Assembly: GCF_055900595.2 (NCBI RefSeq)
Contig: NZ_CM148325.1
DNA: 64,000 bases
Strand: one strand, 5' to 3'
A program made the position numbers and the translations under genes. This document shows positions 1,694 to 56,429 of this stretch, piece after piece. The stretch's first letter is position 1; each line of letters starts with the position of its first letter. The notes beneath the pieces were generated by a model that searched no databases, had not been told where the DNA came from, and saw only the letters and a list, made by a program, of their open reading frames with translations.

Positions 1694-3355
1694 TTACGCC
1701 GCAAGCAGTTCTTTCGCATTCGCCAGTGTGTTACGTGTGACTTCACTGCCACCAAGCAGGCGCGCCAGCTCTTGTAACCGCGCTTTTTTGTCCAGCGACT
1801 CCATATGCGTTTCTGTCATCGCACCATCGGTTTCTTTGCTGACAAAATAGTGTTGATGACCACATCCCGCGACTTGTGGCAGGTGGGTAACACACATCAC
1901 CTGAGTTGATTCGCCGAGTTGACGCAGCAGTTTGCCGACAACTGCCGCTGTTGGACCGCTAATCCCTACATCCACTTCATCAAAAATCAGTGCCGGGGTT
2001 TCCATTTTACGCGCTGTGATGACCTGAATTGCCAATGCGATGCGGGACAATTCACCACCAGATGCGACTTTGGCAATAGGCTGCATTGGCTGACCTGGGT
2101 TGGTGGTTACCCGAAACTCAATACGATCAGCGCCGTCAGCGCCCAGGTGATGCTCGTCAAATTTAACATCAATCGTAAACTGCCCATGCGGCATAGAGAG
2201 TGCATGCATACTGTCGGTGATCAGCTGTGCCAACTCATTTGCATAATGCTGGCGTTGCTGGTGTAACGCGCGCGCCGTTTCCAGTGCCTGCTGATGATGT
2301 TTCGTTACCGCCAGCGCGAGCGTTTCTTGTGAGTCGGCCTGATCGTCCAGTTGCTGCTGCTCTTCCAGTAGCGACTGGTAATACTGTGGCAATACCTCAG
2401 GGCTGACGTGATGTTTACGTGCCAGCGAAATCTGTTTTGAGATGCGCTGTTCAAGTTCAAACAGTCGGTTGGGATCGAGATCCAGACGATCGCAGTAGTG
2501 GCGCAGTTCGTCGCTGGCTTCAACAATCTGGATGGTAGCTTCTTCCAGCATATCAAGTACGCCGGACAGTTTGCTGTCCATGCCAATCAATTCGCTCACC
2601 AGTTGTTTAGCCGTGTAAAGCTGGCTTTGCAGGTTTGCGTCTTCGCCGTCGGCCATTAATGCCAATGCATTCTGGCTGGTGGTCAGTAATTGACCGCTGT
2701 TCGCCAGACGTTTGTACTCTTCGTCGATTTGCTCAAACTCTCCGGGCTGCGGATTAAATTCGTTAAGTTCTTTTAATTGGTATTGCAGCAGCTCCGCACG
2801 AGCGGCGCGTTCCTGACTTAACTGTTGATGATGAGCGAGGTCGCGGCAGCTTTGATGCCACAACTGATAACGTGCGGTCATTTCCTGAAGCAGAGAGGTT
2901 TCATTAGCATAGCCATCAAGCAGGAATTTTTGGTGCTCGGGTTTGGTGAGTAATTGATGGGCGTGCTGACCATGGATCTGAATGAGCAACTGGCCCAGTT
3001 CGCGCAGTTGTGACAGTGGAACAGCTGTACCGTTGATAAAACCACGAGAGCGACCATCGCTACTGATTACGCGACGAAGCAGGCATTCACGGCCATCTTC
3101 CAGTTGGTTTTCTTCCAGCCAGCGCAGTGCTGCGGGTGTATCTTTCAGAGAAAAACGGGCGCACAGATCTGCGCGAGCAGCTCCGGTACGCACCATGTCG
3201 GCTTCAGCGCGACCGCCGAGACAAAGGCCCAGGGCATCTATTGCAATAGATTTACCCGCGCCAGTCTCGCCGGTGATTACGGTCATGCCGCTGTGAAAAT
3301 CAATCTCAAGCTCACGAACGATAGCAAAGTTGCTGATGGTCAGTTGTGCCAACAT
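1694..3355 (-). CDS. recN: DNA repair protein RecN (SMC-like ATPase)
   Basis: 553-aa ORF, Walker A GETGAGKS at N-terminus, RecN sequence. Confidence 0.95.
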
Positions 3356-12657: not shown

Positions 12658-13165
12658 TTTTCTTCCGTGCGAGCATTAAGACATCTGGGTTCACCTTTAC
12701 ACCGCTACGCGATAAGGCATCCAGGTTTACGGCAAATCTGACGTCATTATTGTGGATGATCAGACAAAAGGCGCTGCCAATAATGCACTCGGCATTTTGT
12801 TCGGCAATTAATAATAACGCCTTTGACGGATATTGTTCGGTTAATTCCATCTGGAATGTTGGTGACTCGTTGCCAAAATAAAAACCATTGCAGCCTGATA
12901 TCATCGCCTCTTGTTGAGAGTGAATGATGACAGGCAGATAAGGCAAAGATGTCGCGCCATTCTCTTGTAGGGCGGTACTAAAACGTGAAGATGAAAAGAT
13001 ACATAACTTTGGTAGGCCTGATAGCGCAGGCCAGCGAGTGTAACTGACAATACCGGAAACCATCGTACGCACGTTTTTCGCAACGTCTGAAGGTTCCTGA
13101 GCGAGTATTGGTGCTCCCGTCAGGAGGAGAATCAGCAGTAAGAACAGACGATGAGAAAAACGCAT
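12647..13165 (-). CDS. yfiR: Periplasmic repressor of DgcN, YfiR
   Basis: 172 aa with signal peptide; overlaps dgcN start by 11 nt (operon yfiR-dgcN-yfiB). Confidence 0.9.
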
Positions 13166-17296: not shown

Positions 17297-17318
17297 AGTG
17301 TTGCCTTTTTGTTATCAA

Positions 17319-17349
17319 TAAAAAAGGCCCCCCGGTTTGGGAGGCCTTA
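17319..17349 (-). terminator. pheA attenuator terminator
   Basis: Minus-strand RNA AAGGCCTCCCAAACCGGGGGGCCTTTTTT between pheL and pheA. Confidence 0.8.
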
Positions 17350-17394
17350 TTGTTCGTCTTCGCATTCTGTTTCACACGACGAAACGCCTCCCAT

Positions 17395-17442
17395 TCAGGG
17401 GAAGGTAAAAAAGAATGCGAAGAAAAACGGTGTGTGTTTCAT
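17395..17442 (-). CDS. pheL: pheA leader peptide PheL (15 aa, Phe-rich)
   Basis: Minus-strand ATG at 17442 encodes [15 protein letters not shown]; not in ORF track because it is under 60 aa. Confidence 0.85.
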   Translation of the reverse strand: [15 protein letters not shown]

Positions 17443-17497
17443 GTTTGTTTCCTTAAGTGACTTCAGTACAGTACCCGTACTGTTTTCACGCTGTCAA

Positions 17498-18894: not shown

Positions 18895-19607
18895 AATGCG
18901 CCTGTAAGGCTCTGTTACCAGCCGCGCCCTAACAGGCGCATACGATCTGACATTTGCATTCAACTTCGTTACTTACGGCCCGTAAACGGGCTGCCCGGAT
19001 ATGGAATCGATAACTGCTCCCCCATTTTATCCTCTTCAAGCTGGTGCTTTATGTAGTCCTGTATCTTCGCCGTGTTCTTACCCACCGTATCGACATAGTA
19101 CCCTCGGCACCAGAACTCCCTGTTTCTGTATTTGAATTTCAAATCCCCAAACTGCTCGTAAAGCATCAGACTGCTTTTCCCTTTCAGATATCCCATAAAG
19201 CCGGATACGCTCATTTTGGGTGGGATTTCCACAAGCATATGGATATGATCTGCGCAGCACTCTGCTTCCAGAATCCGTACGCTTTTCCACTCACACAGCT
19301 TTCTCAAAATACTGCCTATCGCCCTACGCTTCTCTCCGTAAAACGCCAGTCTTCGGTATTTCGGCGCAAAAACTATGTGATATTTACAGTTCCAGCGGGT
19401 GTGCGCTAAGCTCTTTTCGTCCCCCATTGGGACCCCCTTTTGATTTCTTGTTTGACACTTGCAGTTGCCAGACCGCAAGGTGTTTTAACAAATCAAAAGG
19501 GGTTTTAATAACTGGCTCAAAGCTGAAAGCTTTCCGGAACCCCCAGCCTAGCTGGGGGTTTTCTGTGCACAAAAAAATCCGGAAACGAGTGAGCGTTTCC
19601 GGATTCT
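18895..19607 (-). mobile_element. IS200-like element (IS200/IS605 family), approx. 0.71 kb, boundaries +/- ~20 bp
   Basis: Contains Y1/HUH transposase tnpA, a terminator-like perfect palindrome near the left end (19577-19603), a 5'-UTR palindrome (19540-19558) and a 10-bp inverted repeat after the stop (18896-18905 / 18932-18941); extent inferred from expected IS4 leader length. Confidence 0.7.
18969..19427 (-). CDS. tnpA: IS200 transposase TnpA (Y1 HUH single-strand transposase)
   Basis: MGDEKSLAHTRWNCKYHIVFAPKYRR...HIHMLVEIPPK... 152 aa; the HxH (HIHML) motif is directly visible; ORF-track start at 19478 is an upstream extension. Confidence 0.9.
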   Translation of the reverse strand: MGDEKSLAHTRWNCKYHIVFAPKYRRLAFYGEKRRAIGSILRKLCEWKSVRILEAECCADHIHMLVEIPPKMSVSGFMGYLKGKSSLMLYEQFGDLKFKYRNREFWCRGYYVDTVGKNTAKIQDYIKHQLEEDKMGEQLSIPYPGSPFTGRK

Positions 19608-22273: not shown

Positions 22274-22334
22274 CCTAAAGAATCAAGACGATCCGGTACG
22301 CGTGATTTTCTTTTCACATTAATCTGGTCAATAA

Positions 22335-22364
22335 CCTTGAATAATTGAGGGATGACCTCATTTA
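22335..22364 (+). promoter_or_regulatory. Sigma-32 promoter of clpB
   Basis: ccttgaa (-35, 22335-22341) and cctcattta (-10, 22356-22364). Confidence 0.75.
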
Positions 22365-22402
22365 ATCTCCAGTAGCAACTTTGATCCGTTATGGGAGGAG
22401 TT

Positions 22403-24976
22403 ATGCGTCTGGATCGTCTTACTAATAAATTCCAGCTTGCTCTTGCCGATGCCCAATCACTTGCACTCGGGCACGACAACCAATTCATCGAACCACTTCA
22501 TTTAATGAGCGCCCTGCTGAATCAGGAAGGGGGTTCGGTTAGTCCTTTATTAACATCCGCCGGCATCAATGCTGGTCAGTTGCGCACAGATATCAATCAG
22601 GCATTAAATCGTTTACCGCAGGTTGAAGGCACTGGCGGCGATGTCCAGCCCTCACAGGATCTGGTGCGCGTTCTTAATCTTTGCGACAAGCTGGCGCAAA
22701 AACGTGGTGATAACTTTATCTCGTCAGAACTGTTCGTTCTGGCGGCACTTGAGTCTCGCGGCACGCTGGCCGACATCCTGAAAGCAGCAGGGGCGACCAC
22801 CGCCAACATTACTCAAGCGATTGAACAAATGCGTGGAGGTGAAAGCGTGAACGATCAAGGAGCTGAAGACCAACGTCAGGCTTTGAAAAAATACACTATC
22901 GACCTCACCGAACGAGCCGAACAAGGCAAACTCGATCCGGTGATTGGCCGTGATGAAGAAATTCGCCGTACCATTCAGGTACTGCAACGTCGTACTAAAA
23001 ATAACCCGGTGCTGATTGGTGAACCAGGCGTTGGTAAAACAGCCATCGTTGAAGGTCTGGCTCAGCGTATTATCAATGGCGAAGTGCCGGAAGGGTTGAA
23101 AGGCCGCCGCGTACTGGCGCTGGATATGGGCGCGCTGGTGGCTGGGGCGAAATATCGCGGTGAGTTTGAAGAGCGTTTAAAAGGCGTGCTTAACGATCTT
23201 GCCAAACAGGAAGGCAACGTCATCCTGTTTATCGACGAATTACATACCATGGTCGGCGCGGGTAAAGCCGATGGCGCAATGGATGCCGGCAACATGCTGA
23301 AACCGGCGCTGGCGCGTGGTGAATTGCACTGCGTAGGTGCCACGACACTGGACGAATATCGCCAGTACATCGAAAAAGATGCTGCGCTGGAACGTCGTTT
23401 CCAGAAAGTGTTTGTTGCCGAGCCAACCGTGGAAGACACCATTGCTATTCTGCGTGGCCTGAAAGAACGTTACGAACTGCACCACCATGTGCAAATTACT
23501 GACCCGGCAATTGTTGCAGCTGCGACATTATCTCATCGCTACATTGCTGACCGTCAGCTGCCGGATAAAGCCATCGACCTGATCGATGAAGCAGCATCCA
23601 GCATTCGTATGCAGATTGACTCAAAACCAGAAGAACTCGACCGACTCGATCGTCGTATCATCCAGCTCAAACTGGAACAACAGGCGTTAATGAAAGAGTC
23701 TGATGAAGCCAGTAAAAAACGCCTGGATATGCTCAACGAAGAACTGAGCGACAAAGAACGTCAGTATTCCGAGTTAGAAGAAGAGTGGAAAGCTGAGAAA
23801 GCGTCGCTTTCTGGTACGCAGACCATTAAAGCGGAACTGGAACAGGCGAAAATCGCCATTGAACAGGCTCGCCGTGTGGGTGATCTGGCGCGGATGTCTG
23901 AACTGCAATATGGCAAAATTCCAGAACTGGAAAAGCAACTGGAAGCCGCAACGCAGCTCGAAGGCAAAACTATGCGTCTCTTGCGTAATAAAGTGACCGA
24001 CGCCGAAATTGCTGAAGTGCTGGCGCGTTGGACGGGGATTCCGGTTTCTCGCATGATGGAAAGCGAGCGCGAAAAACTGCTGCGTATGGAGCAAGAGCTG
24101 CACCATCGCGTTATTGGTCAGAACGAAGCGGTTGATGCGGTATCTAACGCTATTCGTCGTAGCCGTGCGGGGCTTGCTGACCCGAATCGCCCGATTGGTT
24201 CATTCCTGTTCCTCGGCCCAACGGGTGTGGGGAAAACTGAGCTTTGTAAGGCGCTGGCGAACTTTATGTTTGATAGCGACGAGGCGATGGTCCGTATCGA
24301 TATGTCCGAGTTTATGGAGAAACACTCGGTGTCTCGTCTGGTTGGTGCGCCTCCGGGATATGTCGGTTATGAAGAAGGTGGCTACCTGACCGAAGCGGTG
24401 CGTCGTCGTCCGTATTCCGTCATCCTGCTGGATGAAGTGGAAAAAGCGCATCCGGATGTCTTCAACATTCTGTTGCAGGTACTGGATGATGGGCGTCTGA
24501 CTGACGGGCAGGGGAGAACGGTCGACTTCCGTAATACGGTTGTCATTATGACCTCTAACCTCGGTTCCGATTTGATTCAGGAACGCTTCGGTGAACTGGA
24601 TTATGCGCACATGAAAGAGCTGGTACTCGGTGTGGTAAGCCATAACTTCCGTCCGGAATTCATTAACCGTATCGATGAAGTGGTGGTCTTCCATCCGCTG
24701 GGTGAACAGCACATTGCGTCGATTGCGCAGATTCAGTTGAAACGTCTGTACAAACGTCTGGAAGAACGTGGTTATGAAATCCACATTTCTGACGAGGCGC
24801 TGAAACTGCTGAGCGAGAACGGTTACGATCCGGTCTATGGTGCACGTCCTCTGAAACGTGCTATCCAGCAGCAGATCGAAAACCCGCTGGCACAGCAAAT
24901 ACTGTCTGGTGAATTGGTTCCGGGTAAAGTTATTCGCCTGGAAGTTAATGAAGACAGGATTGTCGCCGTCCAGTAA
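22403..24976 (+). CDS. clpB: Chaperone ClpB (Hsp100 disaggregase)
   Basis: [27 protein letters not shown]... 857 aa, two AAA+ modules; ORF-track 22391 start is 4 codons upstream. Confidence 0.96.
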
Positions 24977-25417: not shown

Positions 25418-26959
<1,542 letters not shown>

Positions 26960-27314: not shown

Positions 27315-30219
<2,905 letters not shown>

Positions 30220-30312: not shown

Positions 30313-30432
30313 TGCCTGGCGGCCTTAGCGCGGTGGTCCCACCTGACCCCATGCCGAACTCAGAAGTGAAACGCCGTAGCGCCGATGGTAGTGTGGGGTC
30401 TCCCCATGCGAGAGTAGGGAACTGCCAGGCAT
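30313..30432 (+). rRNA. rrfG: 5S ribosomal RNA
   Basis: TGCCTGGCGGC...GGAACTGCCAGGCAT, 120 nt. Confidence 0.97.
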
Positions 30433-30446
30433 CAAATTAAGCAGAA

Positions 30447-30474
30447 GGCCCAGTCGGAAGACTGGGCCTTTTTG
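30447..30474 (+). terminator. rRNA operon terminator
   Basis: ggcccagtc ggaa gactgggcc hairpin followed by ttttt. Confidence 0.85.
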
Positions 30475-30492
30475 CATGGTGCAGAAAACCAT

Positions 30493-30528
30493 GCCGGATG
30501 CGACGCTGGTGCGTCTTATCCAGCCTAC
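30493..30528. repeat. REP (repetitive extragenic palindromic) element
   Basis: gccggatgcgacgctggtgcgtcttatccagcctac matches REP consensus GCCGGATGCGGCG...CTTATCCGGCCTAC. Confidence 0.75.
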
Positions 30529-41085: not shown

Positions 41086-41187
41086 TTGTTATCTCCTCTG
41101 TTTTGGTAGACAGTACCCGACACGAAACATTTAAAAAAATGAATGTTTTCACATTCTAAATTCGATATTTTCGATAGGTTTGGAGTT

Positions 41188-42069
41188 ATGGATCTGCGCC
41201 GTTTTATTACGCTTAAAACCGTGGTGGAAGAGGGTTCCTTTTTGCGAGCTTCGCAAAAATTGTGTTGCACACAATCGACGGTGACTTTTCATATTCAGCA
41301 GCTTGAACAGGAGTTCTCAGTACAATTGTTTGAGAAAATTGGCCGACGGATGTGCCTCACTCGCGAAGGCAAAAAGTTGCTGCCGCACATCTATGAACTC
41401 ACCAGAGTGATGGATACGCTTCGTGAGGCTGCCAAAAAAGAGTCTGATCCGGACGGAGAACTGCGCGTTGTTTCAGGCGAAACGCTGCTCTCTTACCGAA
41501 TGCCGCAGGTGTTGCAGCGTTTTCGGCAACGTGCACCAAAAGTGCGTTTATCACTGCAGTCGCTGAACTGTTACGTGATCCGTGATGCTCTACTGAATGA
41601 TGAGGCCGATGTCGGTGTTTTTTATCGCGTAGGAAATGATGATGCTCTGAATCGACGAGAATTGGGTGAACAATCGCTGGTGCTGGTGGCTTCACCGCAA
41701 ATTGCAGATGTCGATTTTACTCAGCCTGGAAGACATAACGCCTGTAGCTTTATTATCAACGAACCACAATGTGTCTTCCGGCAGATATTTGAGAGCACGC
41801 TGCGCCAGCGGCGGATCACGGTGGAAAATACCATTGAGCTTATAAGCATTGAAAGCATCAAGCGTTGTGTCGCGGCGAATATCGGGGTCAGTTACCTGCC
41901 GCGCTTTGCAGTGGCAAATGAACTTGCGAGTGGCGAATTAATCGAATTGCCTTTTGGCGAACAGTCGCAGACCATTACGGCAATGTGCGCTCACCATGCC
42001 GGGAAAGCGGTTAGCCCGGCGATGCACACTTTTATTCAGTGTGTTGAAGAGTGTTTTTTGCCGGGATAA
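41188..42069 (+). CDS. yfiE: LysR-family transcriptional regulator YfiE
   Basis: MDLRRFITLKTVVEEGSFLRASQKL... HTH N-terminus, 293 aa; divergent from eamB. Confidence 0.88.
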   Translation: MDLRRFITLKTVVEEGSFLRASQKLCCTQSTVTFHIQQLEQEFSVQLFEKIGRRMCLTREGKKLLPHIYELTRVMDTLREAAKKESDPDGELRVVSGETLLSYRMPQVLQRFRQRAPKVRLSLQSLNCYVIRDALLNDEADVGVFYRVGNDDALNRRELGEQSLVLVASPQIADVDFTQPGRHNACSFIINEPQCVFRQIFESTLRQRRITVENTIELISIESIKRCVAANIGVSYLPRFAVANELASGELIELPFGEQSQTITAMCAHHAGKAVSPAMHTFIQCVEECFLPG

Positions 42070-42075
42070 AAATAA

Positions 42076-42272
42076 TGCCGGGCTTAAACCCGGCACCTAA
42101 CTTGTCGACGAAGTGCGTTTTGTTCATGCCGGATGCGGCGTGAACGCCTTATCCGGCCTACAAGATCGTGCAAATTCAATATATTGCATGAGCCATGTAG
42201 GCCTGATAAGCGTAGAGCATCAGGCAGTTTTGCGTTTGCCAGCACTTTTAATTCCGGGCTTAAACCCGGAAT
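42076..42272. repeat. BIME: two inverted REP elements flanked by near-identical ccgggcttaaacccgg palindromes
   Basis: REP gccggatgcggcgtgaacgccttatccggcctac (42128-42161), inverted REP gtaggcctgataagcgtagagcatcaggc (42197-42225), palindromes at 42078-42093 and 42255-42270. Confidence 0.75.
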
Positions 42273-42277
42273 TAAGA

Positions 42278-43612
42278 TCACTCTTCTGTCGTTTGCGGTG
42301 GCACGCCCGTTCCGCTTGGTTTACGGCGCTTACCAATATTTTTGGTGTCGCGATGGCGTTTTTTCACCCGCGGCTTCTCTTTCTCTTTAGCCTTTTTCTT
42401 CTCGGCGCGTTTTGCCAGTACTTTCTTCGATGGCTTGCCGGTCTGCTTCTCACTTGGCGCACGCGTTTTCGGGCGTAACTCATCAATTACGCGAGCTTTA
42501 ATTGGCTCTTCAATATAACGGCCTACTTTGCCCAGCAGCAGATGGTCATGAGCTTCAACCAGTGAAATCGCGGTTCCCTTACGACCAGCGCGAGCAGTAC
42601 GTCCGATACGGTGTAAATAAGTATCGCCACTGCGTGGCATATCGAAGTTAAAAACATGGCTGACATCCGGAATGTCGATACCGCGCGCGGCAACATCGGT
42701 GGCAACCAGTACGTTTACGCGACCTTCGGTCAGACGTTTAATCGCTTCGTTACGCTTACCTTGTACCATCTCGCCTTCGAGATAGCAGTTGTTGATGCCC
42801 GCTTCGCGCAGCCAGTTTGCCAGCTCATGCACACGCTCACGCTTACGCACAAATACGATTGAGCGAGTCGCTTCCGGCTGTTTTAACAGGTGCACCAGCA
42901 ACGCGGTTTTATGTTCCAGGTCATCGGCGCGGTAATACCACTGATGAATCTTTTTGCGCTCACGGGTGGATGGATTCGCAGAAACTTCCACCGGATCTTC
43001 AAGCAGACGCTCGGCAAAATCCTGAATGGCATCGCCTTCAAGCGTTGCCGAGAAGAGCAGGGTCTGTTTACGCCAGCGCGTTTCGCCTGCAATATGTTCG
43101 ATATCCTGAGCAAAACCCATATCCAGCATACGGTCTGCTTCGTCGAGGATCAGCGTTTCAACCGCGCGGCAATCGAAGTTCTCTTCTTTTATGTATTGCA
43201 GCAGACGTCCGGTCGTGGCAACCACGATATCCTGGTTTTCGCTGAATACTTCCGCGTGGTTCATATAGGCTACGCCGCCGGTGATGGTGGCGATATCCAG
43301 ATGCGTATGTTTCGCCAGTTCGCGGGCATGATCGGCCACCTGCATCGCCAGTTCGCGAGTCGGGGTGAGGATCAAAATACGCGGCGGACCGGATTTCTTA
43401 CGGGGGAAATCGAGCAGGTGCTGCAACGCTGGCAGCAGATACGCCGCCGTTTTACCGGTGCCTGTCGGCGCAGAACCGAGTACATCACGGCCATCGAGCG
43501 CAGGCGGAATGGCGGCAGCCTGAATGGCGGTCGGGCGAGTGAAACCTTTATCCTGGAGGGCTTCCAGCAGGCTTTCGTCGAGTTCAAGTTCGGAAAAAGT
43601 CGTTACAGTCAT
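42278..43612 (-). CDS. srmB: ATP-dependent DEAD-box RNA helicase SrmB
   Basis: 444 aa with [17 protein letters not shown] motifs and basic C-terminal tail. Confidence 0.95.
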
Positions 43613-47753: not shown

Positions 47754-48709
47754 TGAAGCAACTTTGGTTTGCCATGTCATTAGTGACAGGTAGCCTGTTA
47801 TTCTCTGCTAACGCCTCGGCCACTCCCGCGTCCGGGGCGTTATTACAGCAGATGAACCTGGCCAGTCAGTCACTGAATTACGAGCTGTCATTCATCAGCA
47901 TCAATAAACAGGGTGTTGAGTCTCTGCGTTATCGACATGCACGCCTCGATAACCGTCCTCTTGCACAATTGTTGCAAATGGATGGCCCGCGCCGGGAAGT
48001 GGTACAGCGCGGCAATGAAATCAGCTACTTTGAACCGGGCCTTGAACCGTTCACGCTTAATGGCGATTACATTGTTGATTCTCTGCCATCGCTCATCTAT
48101 ACCGATTTCAAACGCCTTTCTCCTTACTACGACTTTATCTCCGTGGGACGCACGCGTATTGCTGATCGTCTTTGCGAAGTCATTCGCGTGGTGGCCCGTG
48201 ATGGCACACGCTACAGCTACATCGTGTGGATGGACACCGAATCGAAATTACCGATGCGGGTTGATCTCCTTGATCGCGATGGTGAAACGCTGGAACAATT
48301 TCGCGTGATTGCTTTTAACGTTAATCAGGATATCAGCAGCAGTATGCAGACGCTGGCGAAAGCAAATCTGCCGCCGCTGCTTTCTGTTCCTGTAGGTGAA
48401 AAAGCTAAATTCAGCTGGACGCCAACCTGGTTGCCACAGGGGTTTAGTGAAGTTTCCAGCAGCCGACGTCCGTTACCGACGATGGACAACATGCCTATCG
48501 AATCACGTCTCTATTCCGACGGATTATTCAGCTTCTCGGTAAACGTTAACCGCGCTACGCCATCGAGCACCGATCAGATGTTGCGCACCGGACGCAGAAC
48601 CGTCAGTACAAGCGTACGTGATAACGCCGAAATCACCATTGTCGGCGAACTGCCGCCGCAAACGGCGAAACGCATTGCCGAGAATATTAAGTTCGGGGCA
48701 GCGCAATGA
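47753..48709 (+). CDS. rseB: Sigma-E regulatory protein RseB
   Basis: 318 aa with signal peptide. Confidence 0.95.
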   Translation: MKQLWFAMSLVTGSLLFSANASATPASGALLQQMNLASQSLNYELSFISINKQGVESLRYRHARLDNRPLAQLLQMDGPRREVVQRGNEISYFEPGLEPFTLNGDYIVDSLPSLIYTDFKRLSPYYDFISVGRTRIADRLCEVIRVVARDGTRYSYIVWMDTESKLPMRVDLLDRDGETLEQFRVIAFNVNQDISSSMQTLAKANLPPLLSVPVGEKAKFSWTPTWLPQGFSEVSSSRRPLPTMDNMPIESRLYSDGLFSFSVNVNRATPSSTDQMLRTGRRTVSTSVRDNAEITIVGELPPQTAKRIAENIKFGAAQ

Positions 48710-49185
48710 TCAAAGAGTGGGCTACGGTCGTCTCCTGGCAAAACGGGCAGGCGCTGGTCAGTTGTGATGTTAAAGCCTCATGCAGCAGCTGTGCTTCCCG
48801 TGTCGGTTGCGGTAGCCGCGTGCTGAATAAACTTGGCCCACAAACCACGCATACCATTGTCGTACCCTGTGATGAACCGTTAGTACCGGGGCAAAAAGTG
48901 GAATTAGGAATCACCGAAGGCAGCCTGCTTAGCTCCGCATTACTGGTTTATATGTCGCCGTTGGTGGGATTATTCCTCATCGCTTCGTTATTTCAGCTAC
49001 TCTTTGCTTCAGATCTTGCAGCATTATGCGGTGCGATTCTCGGCGGCGTTGGTGGATTCCTGATTGCACGCAGCTACTCGCGAAAGTTTGCTGCCCGGGC
49101 AGAATGGCAACCGATCATCTTAAGCGTGGCATTGCCGCCAGGCCTTGTGCGATTTGAAACATCTTCGGAAGACGCGAGCCAGTGA
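48706..49185 (+). CDS. rseC: Sigma-E regulatory protein RseC
   Basis: 159 aa membrane protein; overlaps rseB stop by 4 nt. Confidence 0.93.
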   Translation: MIKEWATVVSWQNGQALVSCDVKASCSSCASRVGCGSRVLNKLGPQTTHTIVVPCDEPLVPGQKVELGITEGSLLSSALLVYMSPLVGLFLIASLFQLLFASDLAALCGAILGGVGGFLIARSYSRKFAARAEWQPIILSVALPPGLVRFETSSEDASQ

Positions 49186-49382
49186 TTTCACTGGCTTTGT
49201 TGCATTTTGCATAACAAATGCGAGGACGTTTCCAGATACCACAATCCATACCGTATGAACATTTCCTCGCCTCAATGTTGTAGTGTAGAATGCGGCGTTT
49301 CTATTAATACAGACGTTAAGCTCAGAACAGCGACTTCTAAAAGCCTGGTTAACCGGGCATTAAGGCACAATAATCATACTTT

Positions 49383-51182
<1,800 letters not shown>

Positions 51183-52172: not shown

Positions 52173-52318
52173 TAGCTTATCTTCGTTCACGTTGTCGCCG
52201 TTATGGCGACAACGTGAATTATTTATGAGATAAATCCCCCGTGGCTAACGACATCCCCCGTCGTTGTGTATAGAATATTCCCCCGAAGTTTAAGGTTGGC
52301 ACCTCCAGGTTGCCACGG

Positions 52319-52410
52319 CACACGAAACAGCGTTGGTCCCCATATACCGGTAAACTGAAACTGCAGCGAAGCAGTTAGCAGAGCCATGTATATCAGGTCT
52401 GTTTCGTGTG
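52319..52410 (+). promoter_or_regulatory. rnc leader long stem (RNase III autoregulatory processing structure)
   Basis: 12-bp perfect inverted repeat cacacgaaacag (52319-52330) / ctgtttcgtgtg (52399-52410) in the 5' UTR of rnc. Confidence 0.65.
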
Positions 52411-52414
52411 CTGA

Positions 52415-54027
<1,613 letters not shown>

Positions 54028-56029: not shown

Positions 56030-56072
56030 AAAAGTAAAACCCCCGAACTGGTAAGGAACGGGGGTTTTACTT
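56030..56072. terminator. Terminator hairpin downstream of acpS
   Basis: aaaacccccgaactggtaaggaacgggggtttt flanked by A/T runs. Confidence 0.7.
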
Positions 56073-56429
56073 TACAACTTTAATTTTGTGCAGCACACGA
56101 TTCCAACAAAAATGATTATGGATCAATTTAGTTATCCTGTACAAGCAACTTGCAATCTTTAGCATAAAAACTCGAGCCTTTACGAAGAAATCGATATTGA
56201 TGAAAAGATTAACGTGACCGCTTTTTGATAAGTACATTAGAATCGGCGTCGTTATTGGATATTTTGCTGTGTTCTACGCCATGCCACTGAATTCCCCCAT
56301 TGAAACGAGTGGTGTCGTCAAAGCTCTGGTGTGGAGTGCGGCACTCGATTCCAATAACTCGCACGTTCAGTTTTGGGGAGATGTAAGGGCTAATCTGAAC
56401 GGCTGCATTCCTTGTTTAAGGAAAAACGA

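What the first reader, a model, noticed from the sequence alone, without database searches (positions are those of the whole stretch)
42076..42272. BIME/REP cluster with twin flanking palindromes between yfiE and srmB
Two oppositely oriented REP sequences form a BIME, bracketed by two near-identical ccgggcttaaacccgg palindromes (42078-42093, 42255-42270). Such structures can bind IHF or gyrase and stabilise upstream mRNA. A further REP follows the rrn terminator at 30493-30528.
Basis: partly seen in the sequence, partly recalled or inferred. Interest (0 to 1): 0.15.

Follow-up and report, generated by a model that had tools for sequence, protein, structure and literature searches.

The report
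BIME-1 insertion that duplicated srmB's terminator
Between yfiE and srmB sits an ordinary E. coli intergenic repeat (a BIME-1), and the "twin palindromes" around it are two copies of the old srmB terminator hairpin, duplicated when the repeat inserted; the same footprint recurs at other BIME-1 sites and bears on the unsolved question of how these repeats spread.

Summary
At 42098-42248 lies a complete 151-nt BIME-1 (RIP/RIB type): left arm, Y REP, 35-nt L linker with an IHF-like site, inverted Z1 REP, right arm. It is orthologous to the K-12 copy, so the element itself is already known.

The twin palindromes (42073-42097 and 42249-42273) are not part of the repeat family. They are a 25-nt direct duplication of the ancestral srmB terminator stem-loop. 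About 2,459 of 5,426 complete E. coli genomes, plus E. albertii, Citrobacter, Salmonella and most of the other 80 species sampled, carry one hairpin and no REPs. About 2,524 E. coli genomes carry hairpin-BIME-hairpin. One Escherichia species carries the 176-nt unit twice in tandem.

The footprint is general. Among 43 distinct BIME-1 loci, 9 have flanking direct repeats above the maximum of a cross-locus null. In seven of these the repeat abuts the element ends, and most repeats are whole stem-loops of 18-34 nt. 21 of 43 loci abut a stem-loop, against 0 of 43 controls. Two further loci have verified single-hairpin empty alleles.

Y1 (RAYT) transposition is described as making no target duplication, so this constrains the unresolved insertion mechanism. 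I could not read the 1990s primary papers, so prior description cannot be excluded.

The parts
41143..42069 (+). yfiE (LysR-family regulator) ORF; stop codon TAA at 42067-42069
   Evidence: ORF list; RefSeq annotation of identical or similar genomes
42073..42097 (.). Left copy of the duplicated target stem-loop, TAATGCCGGGCTTAAACCCGGCAcc. On the - strand it is followed by AUUAUUUUUAUCC, so it is the copy that kept the U-tract and is the likely functional srmB intrinsic terminator.
   Evidence: Direct repeat D2; only terminator-like site found, - strand 42097->42074 with tail ATTTTTATCC; RNA hairpin -17.3 kcal/mol; single copy in empty alleles
42098..42127 (+). BIME-1 left arm (taacttgtcgacgaagtgcgttttgttcat; family consensus CAGATTGCTGACAAAGTGCGCGTTGTTCAT)
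   Evidence: Alignment to paralogues; 43-locus consensus; paralogue matches begin at about window 42102
42128..42161 (+). Y-type REP (palindromic unit)
   Evidence: invariant across paralogues. IS1397 sits in its loop in 158 genomes.
42162..42196 (.). L linker of BIME-1 with IHF-consensus-like ATTCAATATATTG at 42174-42186; matches Rfam ES036/CssrF
   Evidence: Rfam hit 42162-42204, 48.1 bits against gathering score 37.6; conserved core AAATTCAATATATTGCA in 43 loci; IHF pattern with 1 mismatch (not enriched on its own)
42197..42225 (-). Z1-type REP, inverted relative to Y. It has one substitution (GAGC for GCGC) that breaks a stem pair relative to K-12.
   Evidence: IS621 is inserted at CGTAG|GCCTGATAAG in other strains.
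42226..42248 (+). BIME-1 right arm (agttttgcgtttgccagcacttt; consensus AATTTTGCGTTTGTCATCAGTCTCA), an imperfect inverted repeat of the left arm
42249..42273 (.). Right copy of the duplicated target stem-loop, TAATTCCGGGCTTAAACCCGGAATT. It lies 4 nt from the srmB stop and has no U-tract on either strand. Pair 5-22 changed G-C to T-A relative to the ancestral sequence.
   Evidence: RNA hairpin -18.8 kcal/mol, z = -6.1
42278..43612 (-). srmB (DEAD-box RNA helicase), 444 aa; stop TGA (tca on +) at 42278-42280
   Evidence: annotation

Best explanation
This is a BIME-1 (also called RIP or RIB): a non-coding, roughly 150-nt mosaic repeat made of left arm, Y REP, L linker (IHF-site type), inverted Z1 REP and right arm. 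It inserted exactly at the foot of the stem-loop that terminates srmB, and the insertion duplicated the whole 25-nt stem-loop, giving hairpin-BIME-hairpin.

Shown: the empty, single-hairpin state is ancestral. The insert corresponds to one complete family consensus element. The duplicated sequence is locus-specific. The same architecture recurs at other BIME-1 loci.

Inferred: integration was a cut-and-join event whose two cut sites were set by the structure of the target, namely the two feet of an extruded hairpin or cruciform, so the length of the target duplication equals the length of the stem-loop. The enzyme is unknown.

Consequences at this locus, inferred from sequence. srmB transcripts now read through the right hairpin copy and the BIME before reaching the left copy, the only one that kept the U-tract. 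The srmB 3'UTR therefore gained about 176 nt of very stable structure of the kind known to affect 3'-end decay and termination. The linker offers an IHF site. The REPs are landing pads for IS1397 and IS621. The 25-nt direct repeats allow precise loss or tandem amplification by unequal recombination.
For: Anatomy.

Polymorphism: 2,524 genomes with the full region against 2,459 with the single-hairpin junction. Alignment shows one TAATGCCGGGCTTAAACCCGGCATT in empty alleles and two copies flanking 151 nt in occupied alleles.

Polarity: E. albertii has the identical single hairpin, and Citrobacter and Salmonella have one related hairpin. Of 80 species, only two non-coli Escherichia (plus one motif in a Citrobacter) have any REP tail downstream of srmB, and 72 of 80 have a hairpin starting a median of 4 nt after the stop.

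The insert is the whole element: paralogues align to window ~42102-42244 and conservation collapses outside the 153-nt consensus.

The palindrome is unique to this locus: median 1 place per genome and only here in the window.

Recurrence: 9 of 43 loci have flank-to-flank direct repeats scoring >=12 against a cross-locus null maximum of 10.5 (n=252). In seven the repeat abuts the element termini, and most repeats are whole stem-loops. fdnI-yddM has a 34-nt repeat and ccmH-narP a 25-nt repeat; both have empty alleles shorter by exactly the repeat spacing and holding one hairpin. A stem-loop abuts a terminus in 21 of 43 loci against 0 of 43 controls, and loci with repeats are closer to the consensus (0.85 vs 0.79, p=0.013).

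Tandem P-B-P-B-P array in Escherichia sp. E1V33.

Terminator asymmetry.

IS1397 and IS621 inside the element.
Against: No insertion event was observed; everything is comparative. Thirty-one of 43 loci show no clear duplication, although 11 of these have a hairpin on one side only, so duplication is either not obligatory or decays. E. coli empty alleles could in part be secondary precise deletions between the repeats, so occupied/empty counts do not measure insertion frequency. The only enzyme proposed for REP mobility, the Y1 transposase TnpA_REP/RAYT, belongs to a family stated to make no target duplication, and it cleaves at the iREP or linker rather than 25-30 nt outside the REPs, so no known enzyme fits. 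Short (9-bp) palindromes are not expected to extrude readily as cruciforms in duplex DNA (my knowledge). Functional consequences (3'UTR stabilisation, IHF binding) were not tested, and the IHF consensus match is at chance frequency. Covariation in the hairpin copies is only suggestive (45 of 500 shuffles reach the observed value).
Confidence: 0.8

Rival explanations
1. Single-strand (RAYT/Y1-type) insertion with re-copying. A single-stranded BIME-1 intermediate is joined to a nascent strand that has just copied the terminator palindrome. The nascent palindrome folds back, re-exposing the template palindrome, which is copied a second time after restart. This gives P-BIME-P without any staggered double-strand cut.
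For: TnpA_REP cleaves and rejoins single-stranded BIMEs in vitro and can cut hundreds of nt from the BIME; the published models use replication-fork ssDNA and 3'-OH priming. It would explain why the duplicated segment is exactly the foldable part.
Against: The family is described as making no flanking repeats. The element termini defined here lie outside the mapped iREP and linker cleavage sites. I see no microhomology between the element ends and the target flanks that could guide repriming (by eye). Nothing here tests it.
Confidence: 0.25
2. The duplication is unrelated to insertion. The BIME-1 first inserted beside the hairpin without duplication, and the hairpin was duplicated later by slippage or unequal exchange; or the two hairpins are independent terminators of the two convergent genes that happen to be alike.
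For: 11 of 31 loci without a direct repeat have a hairpin on one side only, which could be the un-duplicated precursor state. Unequal exchange clearly operates at this locus (tandem array).
Against: Duplicating a 25-nt segment to a position exactly 151 nt away, precisely at the opposite element terminus, independently at 10 or more loci is not what slippage produces. Empty alleles and outgroups have a single hairpin in a 32-nt intergenic region, not two. Independent terminators would not share 21-25 nt of identity including non-stem bases.
Confidence: 0.07
3. Occupied is the older state within Escherichia, and most E. coli empty alleles are secondary, precise excisions by recombination between the 25-nt repeats. 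On this view the roughly 50/50 polymorphism reflects recurrent loss rather than retained ancestral emptiness.
For: Occupied alleles occur in three species-level Escherichia lineages. Both yfiE-end haplotypes (GTGGCTGG and TTGCCGGG) occur with both states. The tandem array proves unequal exchange, whose reciprocal product is an empty site. According to the secondary citation in Chiapello 2005, Bachellier 1997 reported BIME-1 elements to be either present or absent among natural isolates; its abstract, as I recall it, calls the absences 'excisions of a whole BIME-1'.
Against: All empty alleles read carry the ancestral hairpin sequence, or differ from it only at positions 1 and 11. None carries the derived substitutions of the diverged K-12 or window copies, so they are not recent revertants of those alleles. 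E. albertii and all non-Escherichia genera are empty. This rival concerns history within E. coli and does not change what the structure is.
Confidence: 0.3
4. The palindromes are extra members of the REP/BIME family (additional palindromic units or BIME flanking motifs), so the whole 200 nt is simply a larger mosaic repeat.
For: They are GC-rich hairpins immediately adjacent to the BIME arms. EcoGene-style annotation speaks of RIPs that 'contain a REPt transcription terminator sequence'.
Against: The 85-nt junction containing the palindrome occurs once per genome (median 1 place). Paralogous BIME-1 copies stop aligning at the arms. Each other locus has its own, unrelated hairpin sequence.
Confidence: 0.02

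Closest known systems
BIME-1 / RIP (repetitive IHF-binding palindromic) / RIB elements of E. coli
   Same: [quoted passage not shown] The K-12 chromosome has the orthologous copy.
   Different: Nothing about the element itself. What the descriptions I could read do not mention is that the flanking hairpins are a duplication of the target stem-loop.
REPIN/RAYT systems (REP doublets mobilised by a Y1 HUH transposase)
   Same: Two inverted REPs that can fold into one long hairpin; non-autonomous; slow, vertically inherited population. E. coli has a cognate TnpA_REP according to the literature.
   Different: The unit defined by family conservation and by the duplications includes 23-30-nt arms outside the REPs. 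It is flanked by long, variable-length direct repeats, which Y1 single-strand transposition is stated not to produce.
Bacterial MITEs (miniature inverted-repeat transposable elements)
   Same: About 150 nt, non-coding, imperfect terminal inverted repeats, flanked by target-site duplications, with filled and empty sites in a population.
   Different: MITE duplications are short and of fixed length, set by the transposase. Here the length varies (about 18-34 nt) and equals the whole target stem-loop. No DDE transposase with matching ends is known.
Elements that target terminator or REP hairpins: IS1397, IS621 and other IS110-family elements; group IIC introns (the last from my knowledge)
   Same: Structure-directed choice of extragenic stem-loops as safe insertion sites. 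IS1397 and IS621 themselves land in this very BIME.
   Different: Those elements insert into the loop or at a defined sequence, with duplications of 0-4 bp. None duplicates the entire stem-loop.
REP dimers 'inserted within palindromes' in Anabaena, Thermomicrobium and Halothiobacillus (Di Nocera et al. 2013)
   Same: REP doublets associated with a palindromic target.
   Different: There the palindrome arms are split around the insert (an inverted arrangement), and the targets are themselves repeated families. Here a unique, locus-specific stem-loop is duplicated in direct orientation.

Membership tests
REP / palindromic unit (E. coli Y and Z1 types) | Match to the REP consensus, including the conserved tail CTTATC(C/A)GGCCTAC and an imperfect GC-rich palindrome | tested here: met
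   Both units match CTTATCMGGCCTAC with 0 mismatches. Inverted-repeat arms found. Columns invariant across 5 paralogous loci and >=90% conserved in 43 loci.
BIME-1 (RIP/RIB) | One Y and one Z1 unit in inverted orientation separated by the long conserved L linker | tested here: met
   Y 42128-42161, L 42162-42196 (35 nt), inverted Z1 42197-42225. Definition taken. The L core AAATTCAATATATTGCA is conserved. Rfam ES036 hit on the linker is above its gathering score.
BIME-1 (RIP/RIB) | [quoted passage not shown] | tested here: met
   One unit in the window, between the stops of convergent yfiE and srmB. A related species (E1V33) has two units in tandem.
BIME-1 (RIP/RIB) | The linker binds IHF | not testable with these tools
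   ATTCAATATATTG at 42174-42186 fits WATCAANNNNTTR with 1 mismatch, but that pattern occurs at chance frequency in the window (56 observed, 55 expected). Only homology to the L motif supports it.
BIME-2 / gyrase-binding BIME | Y and Z2 units with short S linkers, in tandem arrays; strong gyrase binding | tested here: not met
   The second unit is the short Z1 type, the linker is the 35-nt L, and there is a single unit. Definitions.
Intrinsic (Rho-independent) terminator | GC-rich stem-loop immediately followed by a U-tract on the transcribed strand | tested here: met
   Left copy, - strand (srmB sense): 10-bp stem plus AUUAUUUUUAUCC. Right copy: stable stem but no U-tract on either strand, so not met for that copy. 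Actual termination was not measured.
MITE | Terminal inverted repeats, target-site duplication, no coding capacity, and a cognate transposase with matching ends | tested here: inconclusive
   Imperfect terminal inverted repeats and flanking duplications are present. However, the duplications are long, variable and structure-defined, and no cognate DDE transposase was looked for or is known.
REPIN mobilised by RAYT (IS200/IS605-like Y1 transposition) | Insertion without target-site duplication; cleavage at or near the REP foot | tested here: not met
   25-nt duplication at this locus, 18-34 nt at others. Termini lie 23-30 nt outside the REPs. The presence of a RAYT gene in this genome was not tested.

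The most novel reading that the evidence does not exclude
BIME-1 elements integrate specifically at the feet of terminator-type stem-loops and duplicate the entire stem-loop. This would be a structure-defined, variable-length target-site duplication that no described transposition mechanism produces (Y1/RAYT makes none; DDE enzymes make short, fixed ones). It implies that REP doublets spread by cut-and-join at an extruded hairpin or four-way junction, or by a fork-coupled re-copying step. As a by-product, the element is placed inside both convergent 3'UTRs, upstream of the terminator copies that keep their U-tracts.
Probability: 0.4. Interest if true: 0.6.

Novelty: already known. Interest (0 to 1): 0.4.

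Why it matters
The element itself is textbook and present in K-12, so as an annotation it is ordinary. What matters is the explanation of the twin palindromes. How REPs and BIMEs get to new sites has been open for about 40 years. The 2012 TnpA_REP study calls the mechanism unknown, and a 2026 preprint still says insertion happens 'by some unknown mechanism'. Filled and empty alleles at three loci, plus a 43-locus survey, show a reproducible footprint: insertion at the foot of a stem-loop with duplication of the whole stem-loop. That footprint gives a concrete, testable target (any terminator hairpin on a trap plasmid) and a diagnostic product. It also argues that the simple IS200/IS605-style model is incomplete. 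It explains why BIME-1s sit inside 3'UTRs ahead of functional terminators, why they are precisely lost or tandemly amplified, and why about half of E. coli strains differ by 176 nt in the srmB 3'UTR.

Tried and rejected
(1) The IHF consensus scan is no better than chance in the window, so I do not use it as evidence.

(2) Covariation in the hairpin copies: two compensated pairs with segregating intermediates, but only 10 distinct alleles and 45 of 500 shuffles reach the observed value. This is suggestive only. Palindrome-templated mutation is an alternative to selection.

(3) A search for tandem (P-B-P-B-P) arrays in E. coli, using the E1V33 junction as query, was too divergent for megablast and uninformative.

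(4) Counting IS621 insertions at this locus failed twice. Gapped alignments of intact alleles, and IS621 copies in other BIME-1 loci, reach the 80% coverage cut-off. Only an upper bound of about 285 genomes follows from the census.

(5) The sub-threshold Rfam hits to naRNA4 and SorY are REP-derived noise.

(6) Template switching guided by microhomology: no shared bases between the element ends and the target flanks beyond 1-2 nt.

(7) Literature: Bachellier et al. 1997 (PMC1207841) and Boccard & Prentki 1993 (PMC413762) are not held. The reviews and later papers I could read do not mention stem-loop duplications. The nearest hints are 'REPt' terminators inside RIPs and REP dimers within palindromes in other phyla.

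Full report
OBSERVATION. The window is E. coli; it is 100% identical over 651 nt to strain Z0117EC0005. yfiE (+) ends at 42069 and srmB (-) ends at 42278, leaving a 208-nt intergenic region.

That region contains a Y-type REP (42128-42161, +) and an inverted Z1-type REP (42197-42225). Both match the REP tail motif CTTATCMGGCCTAC without mismatch; the window has 4 matches against 0.38 expected.

CCGGGCTTAAACCCGG occurs exactly twice, at 42078-42093 and 42254-42269, and nowhere else in 64 kb; 0.02 matches are expected by chance. The repeat actually spans 25 nt (42073-42097 and 42249-42273), in direct orientation, 176 nt apart.

The REP at 30493-30528 is also real. It follows 16S, tRNA, 23S and 5S (5S ends at 30430) and a terminator hairpin.

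WHAT THE ELEMENT IS. Paralogous copies elsewhere in E. coli genomes (fepA-entD, fdnI-yddM, ccmH-narP, gcd-cueO) align to window ~42102-42244 and stop there.

A consensus built from 43 distinct loci recovered by a pattern scan is 153 nt long: CAGATTGCTGACAAAGTGCGCGTTGTTCAT (left arm), Y REP, a 35-nt linker with the core AAATTCAATATATTGCA, inverted Z1 REP, and AATTTTGCGTTTGTCATCAGTCTCA (right arm). Conservation collapses outside these ends. The two arms are imperfect inverted repeats of each other.

This is the published BIME-1 architecture: Y plus Z1 separated by the long L linker that frequently carries an IHF site, occurring as single copies. Even that rests on homology, because the IHF consensus match at 42174-42186 is at chance frequency.

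Rfam's ES036/CssrF model hits the linker above its gathering threshold. K-12 has the orthologous element, so the element is already known.

WHAT THE TWIN PALINDROMES ARE. They are not part of the repeat family. The 85-nt junction that contains the palindrome occurs once per genome, and paralogues do not align to it.

Across 5,426 complete E. coli genomes, 2,524 hold the full region. A further 2,459 hold an "empty" junction in which yfiE and srmB are separated by 32 nt containing a single TAATGCCGGGCTTAAACCCGGCATT. The occupied allele is exactly that 25-mer, then 151 nt of BIME-1, then the 25-mer again.

The remaining ~440 genomes include IS1397 in the loop of the Y REP (158 genomes) and IS621 in the Z1 REP at CGTAG|GCCTGATAAG. 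A clean count for IS621 could not be obtained.

POLARITY. E. albertii has the identical single hairpin. Citrobacter and Salmonella have one related hairpin, and more distant genera have a single bidirectional terminator.

Of 80 species-level srmB loci, only two non-coli Escherichia (plus one motif in a Citrobacter) have any REP tail within 300 nt downstream of srmB. In 72 of 80, a perfect hairpin starts a median of 4 nt after the stop. Empty is therefore ancestral, and the hairpin is the ancient srmB terminator.

Escherichia sp. MOD1-EC7003 has one unit. Escherichia sp. E1V33 has hairpin-BIME-hairpin-BIME-hairpin with exact 176-nt periodicity. This shows that the direct repeats support unequal exchange, whose reciprocal product is an empty site. 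Some E. coli empty alleles may thus be secondary losses. However, every empty allele I read has the ancestral hairpin sequence, or differs from it only at positions 1 and 11. None carries the derived substitutions of the diverged copies in K-12-type or window-type occupied alleles.

THE FOOTPRINT IS GENERAL. Two of four paralogous loci examined first are also bracketed by direct repeats of their own, unrelated hairpins:
- fdnI-yddM: 34 nt, spacing 178.
- ccmH-narP: 25 nt, spacing 176.

Both are polymorphic in E. coli (2,070 and 1,504 occupied genomes). Their empty alleles are shorter by exactly the repeat spacing and contain one hairpin. At ccmH-narP this is a textbook bidirectional terminator, AAAAAGAG-GCCCGATGG...CCATCGGGC-TATTTTTAT.

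A BIME-1-specific pattern scan of metagenome and viral contigs gave 112 usable instances in 43 distinct loci. I scored the best ungapped direct match between the left and right flanks of each locus against a cross-locus null (252 pairs, 99th percentile 10.0, maximum 10.5). Nine loci score >=12. In seven of them the left copy ends 48-51 nt (60 nt at one locus with a gapped repeat) before the Y tail and the right copy starts 38-46 nt after the Z1 tail, which is at the element termini. The junctions read [A-run]-STEMLOOP-cagattg...cagtctc(a)-STEMLOOP-[T-run]. The duplicated segment runs from one foot of the stem to the other (18-34 nt), and the A- and T-runs are not duplicated.

Counting any perfect stem of >=6 bp that abuts a terminus, 21 of 43 loci qualify, against 0 of 43 at control positions 45 nt further out. 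Elements with repeats are closer to the family consensus (0.85 vs 0.79, p = 0.013), as expected if the duplications erode with age.

HOW IT MOST LIKELY WORKS. Shown: a complete BIME-1 was joined into the chromosome exactly at the foot of a terminator stem-loop, and the whole stem-loop is present on both sides afterwards.

Inferred: the two strand breaks were placed at the two feet of the folded target. In an extruded hairpin or cruciform these positions are adjacent. Filling in the resulting single-stranded hairpins then duplicates the stem-loop, so the duplication length is set by the target's structure rather than by the enzyme.

I see no microhomology between the element ends and the target flanks, which argues for cut-and-join rather than template switching.

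The enzyme is unknown. The Y1 transposase TnpA_REP is the only candidate in the literature, but its family is stated to make no flanking repeats, and it cuts at the iREP or linker rather than outside the arms. A fork-coupled variant, in which a single strand is joined to a nascent strand and the folded palindrome is then re-copied, is a live rival.

CONSEQUENCES AT THIS LOCUS (from sequence). On the srmB-sense strand, the right copy is a -18.8 kcal/mol hairpin 4 nt after the stop, with no U-tract. The left copy is -17.3 kcal/mol followed by AUUAUUUUUAUCC, like the ancestral single hairpin (-19.2). srmB transcripts are therefore expected to run through the right copy and the BIME and to end at the left copy. 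The 231-nt 3' region folds at -89.5 kcal/mol against -61.6 +/- 4.3 for shuffles (z = -6.5). REPs in 3'UTRs are reported to act as local regulators of termination and decay. None of this was measured here.

The right copy shows two compensated stem pairs whose uncompensated intermediates still segregate:
- Pair 8-19: G-C, then A.C, then A-T.
- Pair 5-22: G-C, then T.C, then T-A (the window allele).

This is consistent with constraint on the hairpin but is statistically only suggestive.

NOVELTY AND VERDICT. The element is a known BIME-1 at a known locus, and its presence/absence polymorphism is a known phenomenon. The reading of the twin palindromes as a whole-stem-loop target duplication, recurrent across BIME-1 loci, is not in any source I could read. 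The closest hints are "REPt" terminators annotated inside RIPs and REP dimers within palindromes in other phyla.

I therefore put about even odds on prior description in some form. I rate the object "already known" and overall interest 0.4, because the footprint makes the long-open insertion mechanism directly testable.

Noticed in passing
window 42162-42204: Rfam 'sRNA' family ES036/CssrF (RF02751, 43 nt) matches the BIME-1 L linker plus the adjacent REP tails, above its gathering score. The family is in effect a model of the BIME-1 linker and should hit every BIME-1 in E. coli.
   Followed up: partly
window 30493-30528: A single REP (GCCGGATGCGACGCTGGTGCGTCTTATCCAGCCTAC) lies 17 nt after the terminator hairpin (about 30448-30475) that follows the 5S rRNA of the rrn operon (16S 25418-26959, 23S 27315-30219, 5S 30315-30430). 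This is again a REP placed just beyond a terminator stem-loop.
   Followed up: partly
window 13012-13025 (-): REP-tail-like match GCTATCAGGCCTAC (2 mismatches); possibly another REP.
   Followed up: no
L006 (strain MZ1211) 61-1505; L007 (strain STEC313) 1850-3132: This BIME is a natural landing pad. IS1397 sits in the loop of the Y REP (GTGAAC|...|GAACGCC) in 158 complete genomes. IS621, an IS110-family element that inserts at a specific site in REPs, sits at CGTAG|GCCTGATAAG of the Z1 REP in others. More than 1,100 genomes carry IS621 at the equivalent position of some BIME-1.
   Followed up: partly
L011 (Escherichia sp. E1V33), downstream of srmB: Tandem array of two 176-nt units (three hairpins, two BIME-1). 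BIME-1 is described in the literature as single-copy, so the hairpin repeats can drive amplification.
   Followed up: partly
window 41850-42500: The window's yfiE-srmB haplotype is rare. Only 15 of 5,472 records are >=99% identical, and K-12 is 93.6% identical over 651 nt. Its BIME allele (GGCACCtAACTTGTCGACGAAGTGCGTTTT..., right copy TAATTCC...) resembles that of Escherichia sp. MOD1-EC7003 and strain MZ1211. This suggests an old polymorphism or introgression at this spot.
   Followed up: no
hit H177 (strain CE2050), fdnI-yddM locus: An IS200/IS605-family tnpA is annotated between the two matching pieces of the fdnI-yddM BIME-1 locus.
   Followed up: no
window 48670-49501, 52285-52499, 56031-56107, 22284-22422, 19437-19560, 17318-17443: Rfam gathering-level hits elsewhere in the window: AsrC (antisense of rseC), rncO, ohsC, RyfD, STnc490 and the Phe leader. 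These are ordinary K-12-type features.
   Followed up: no
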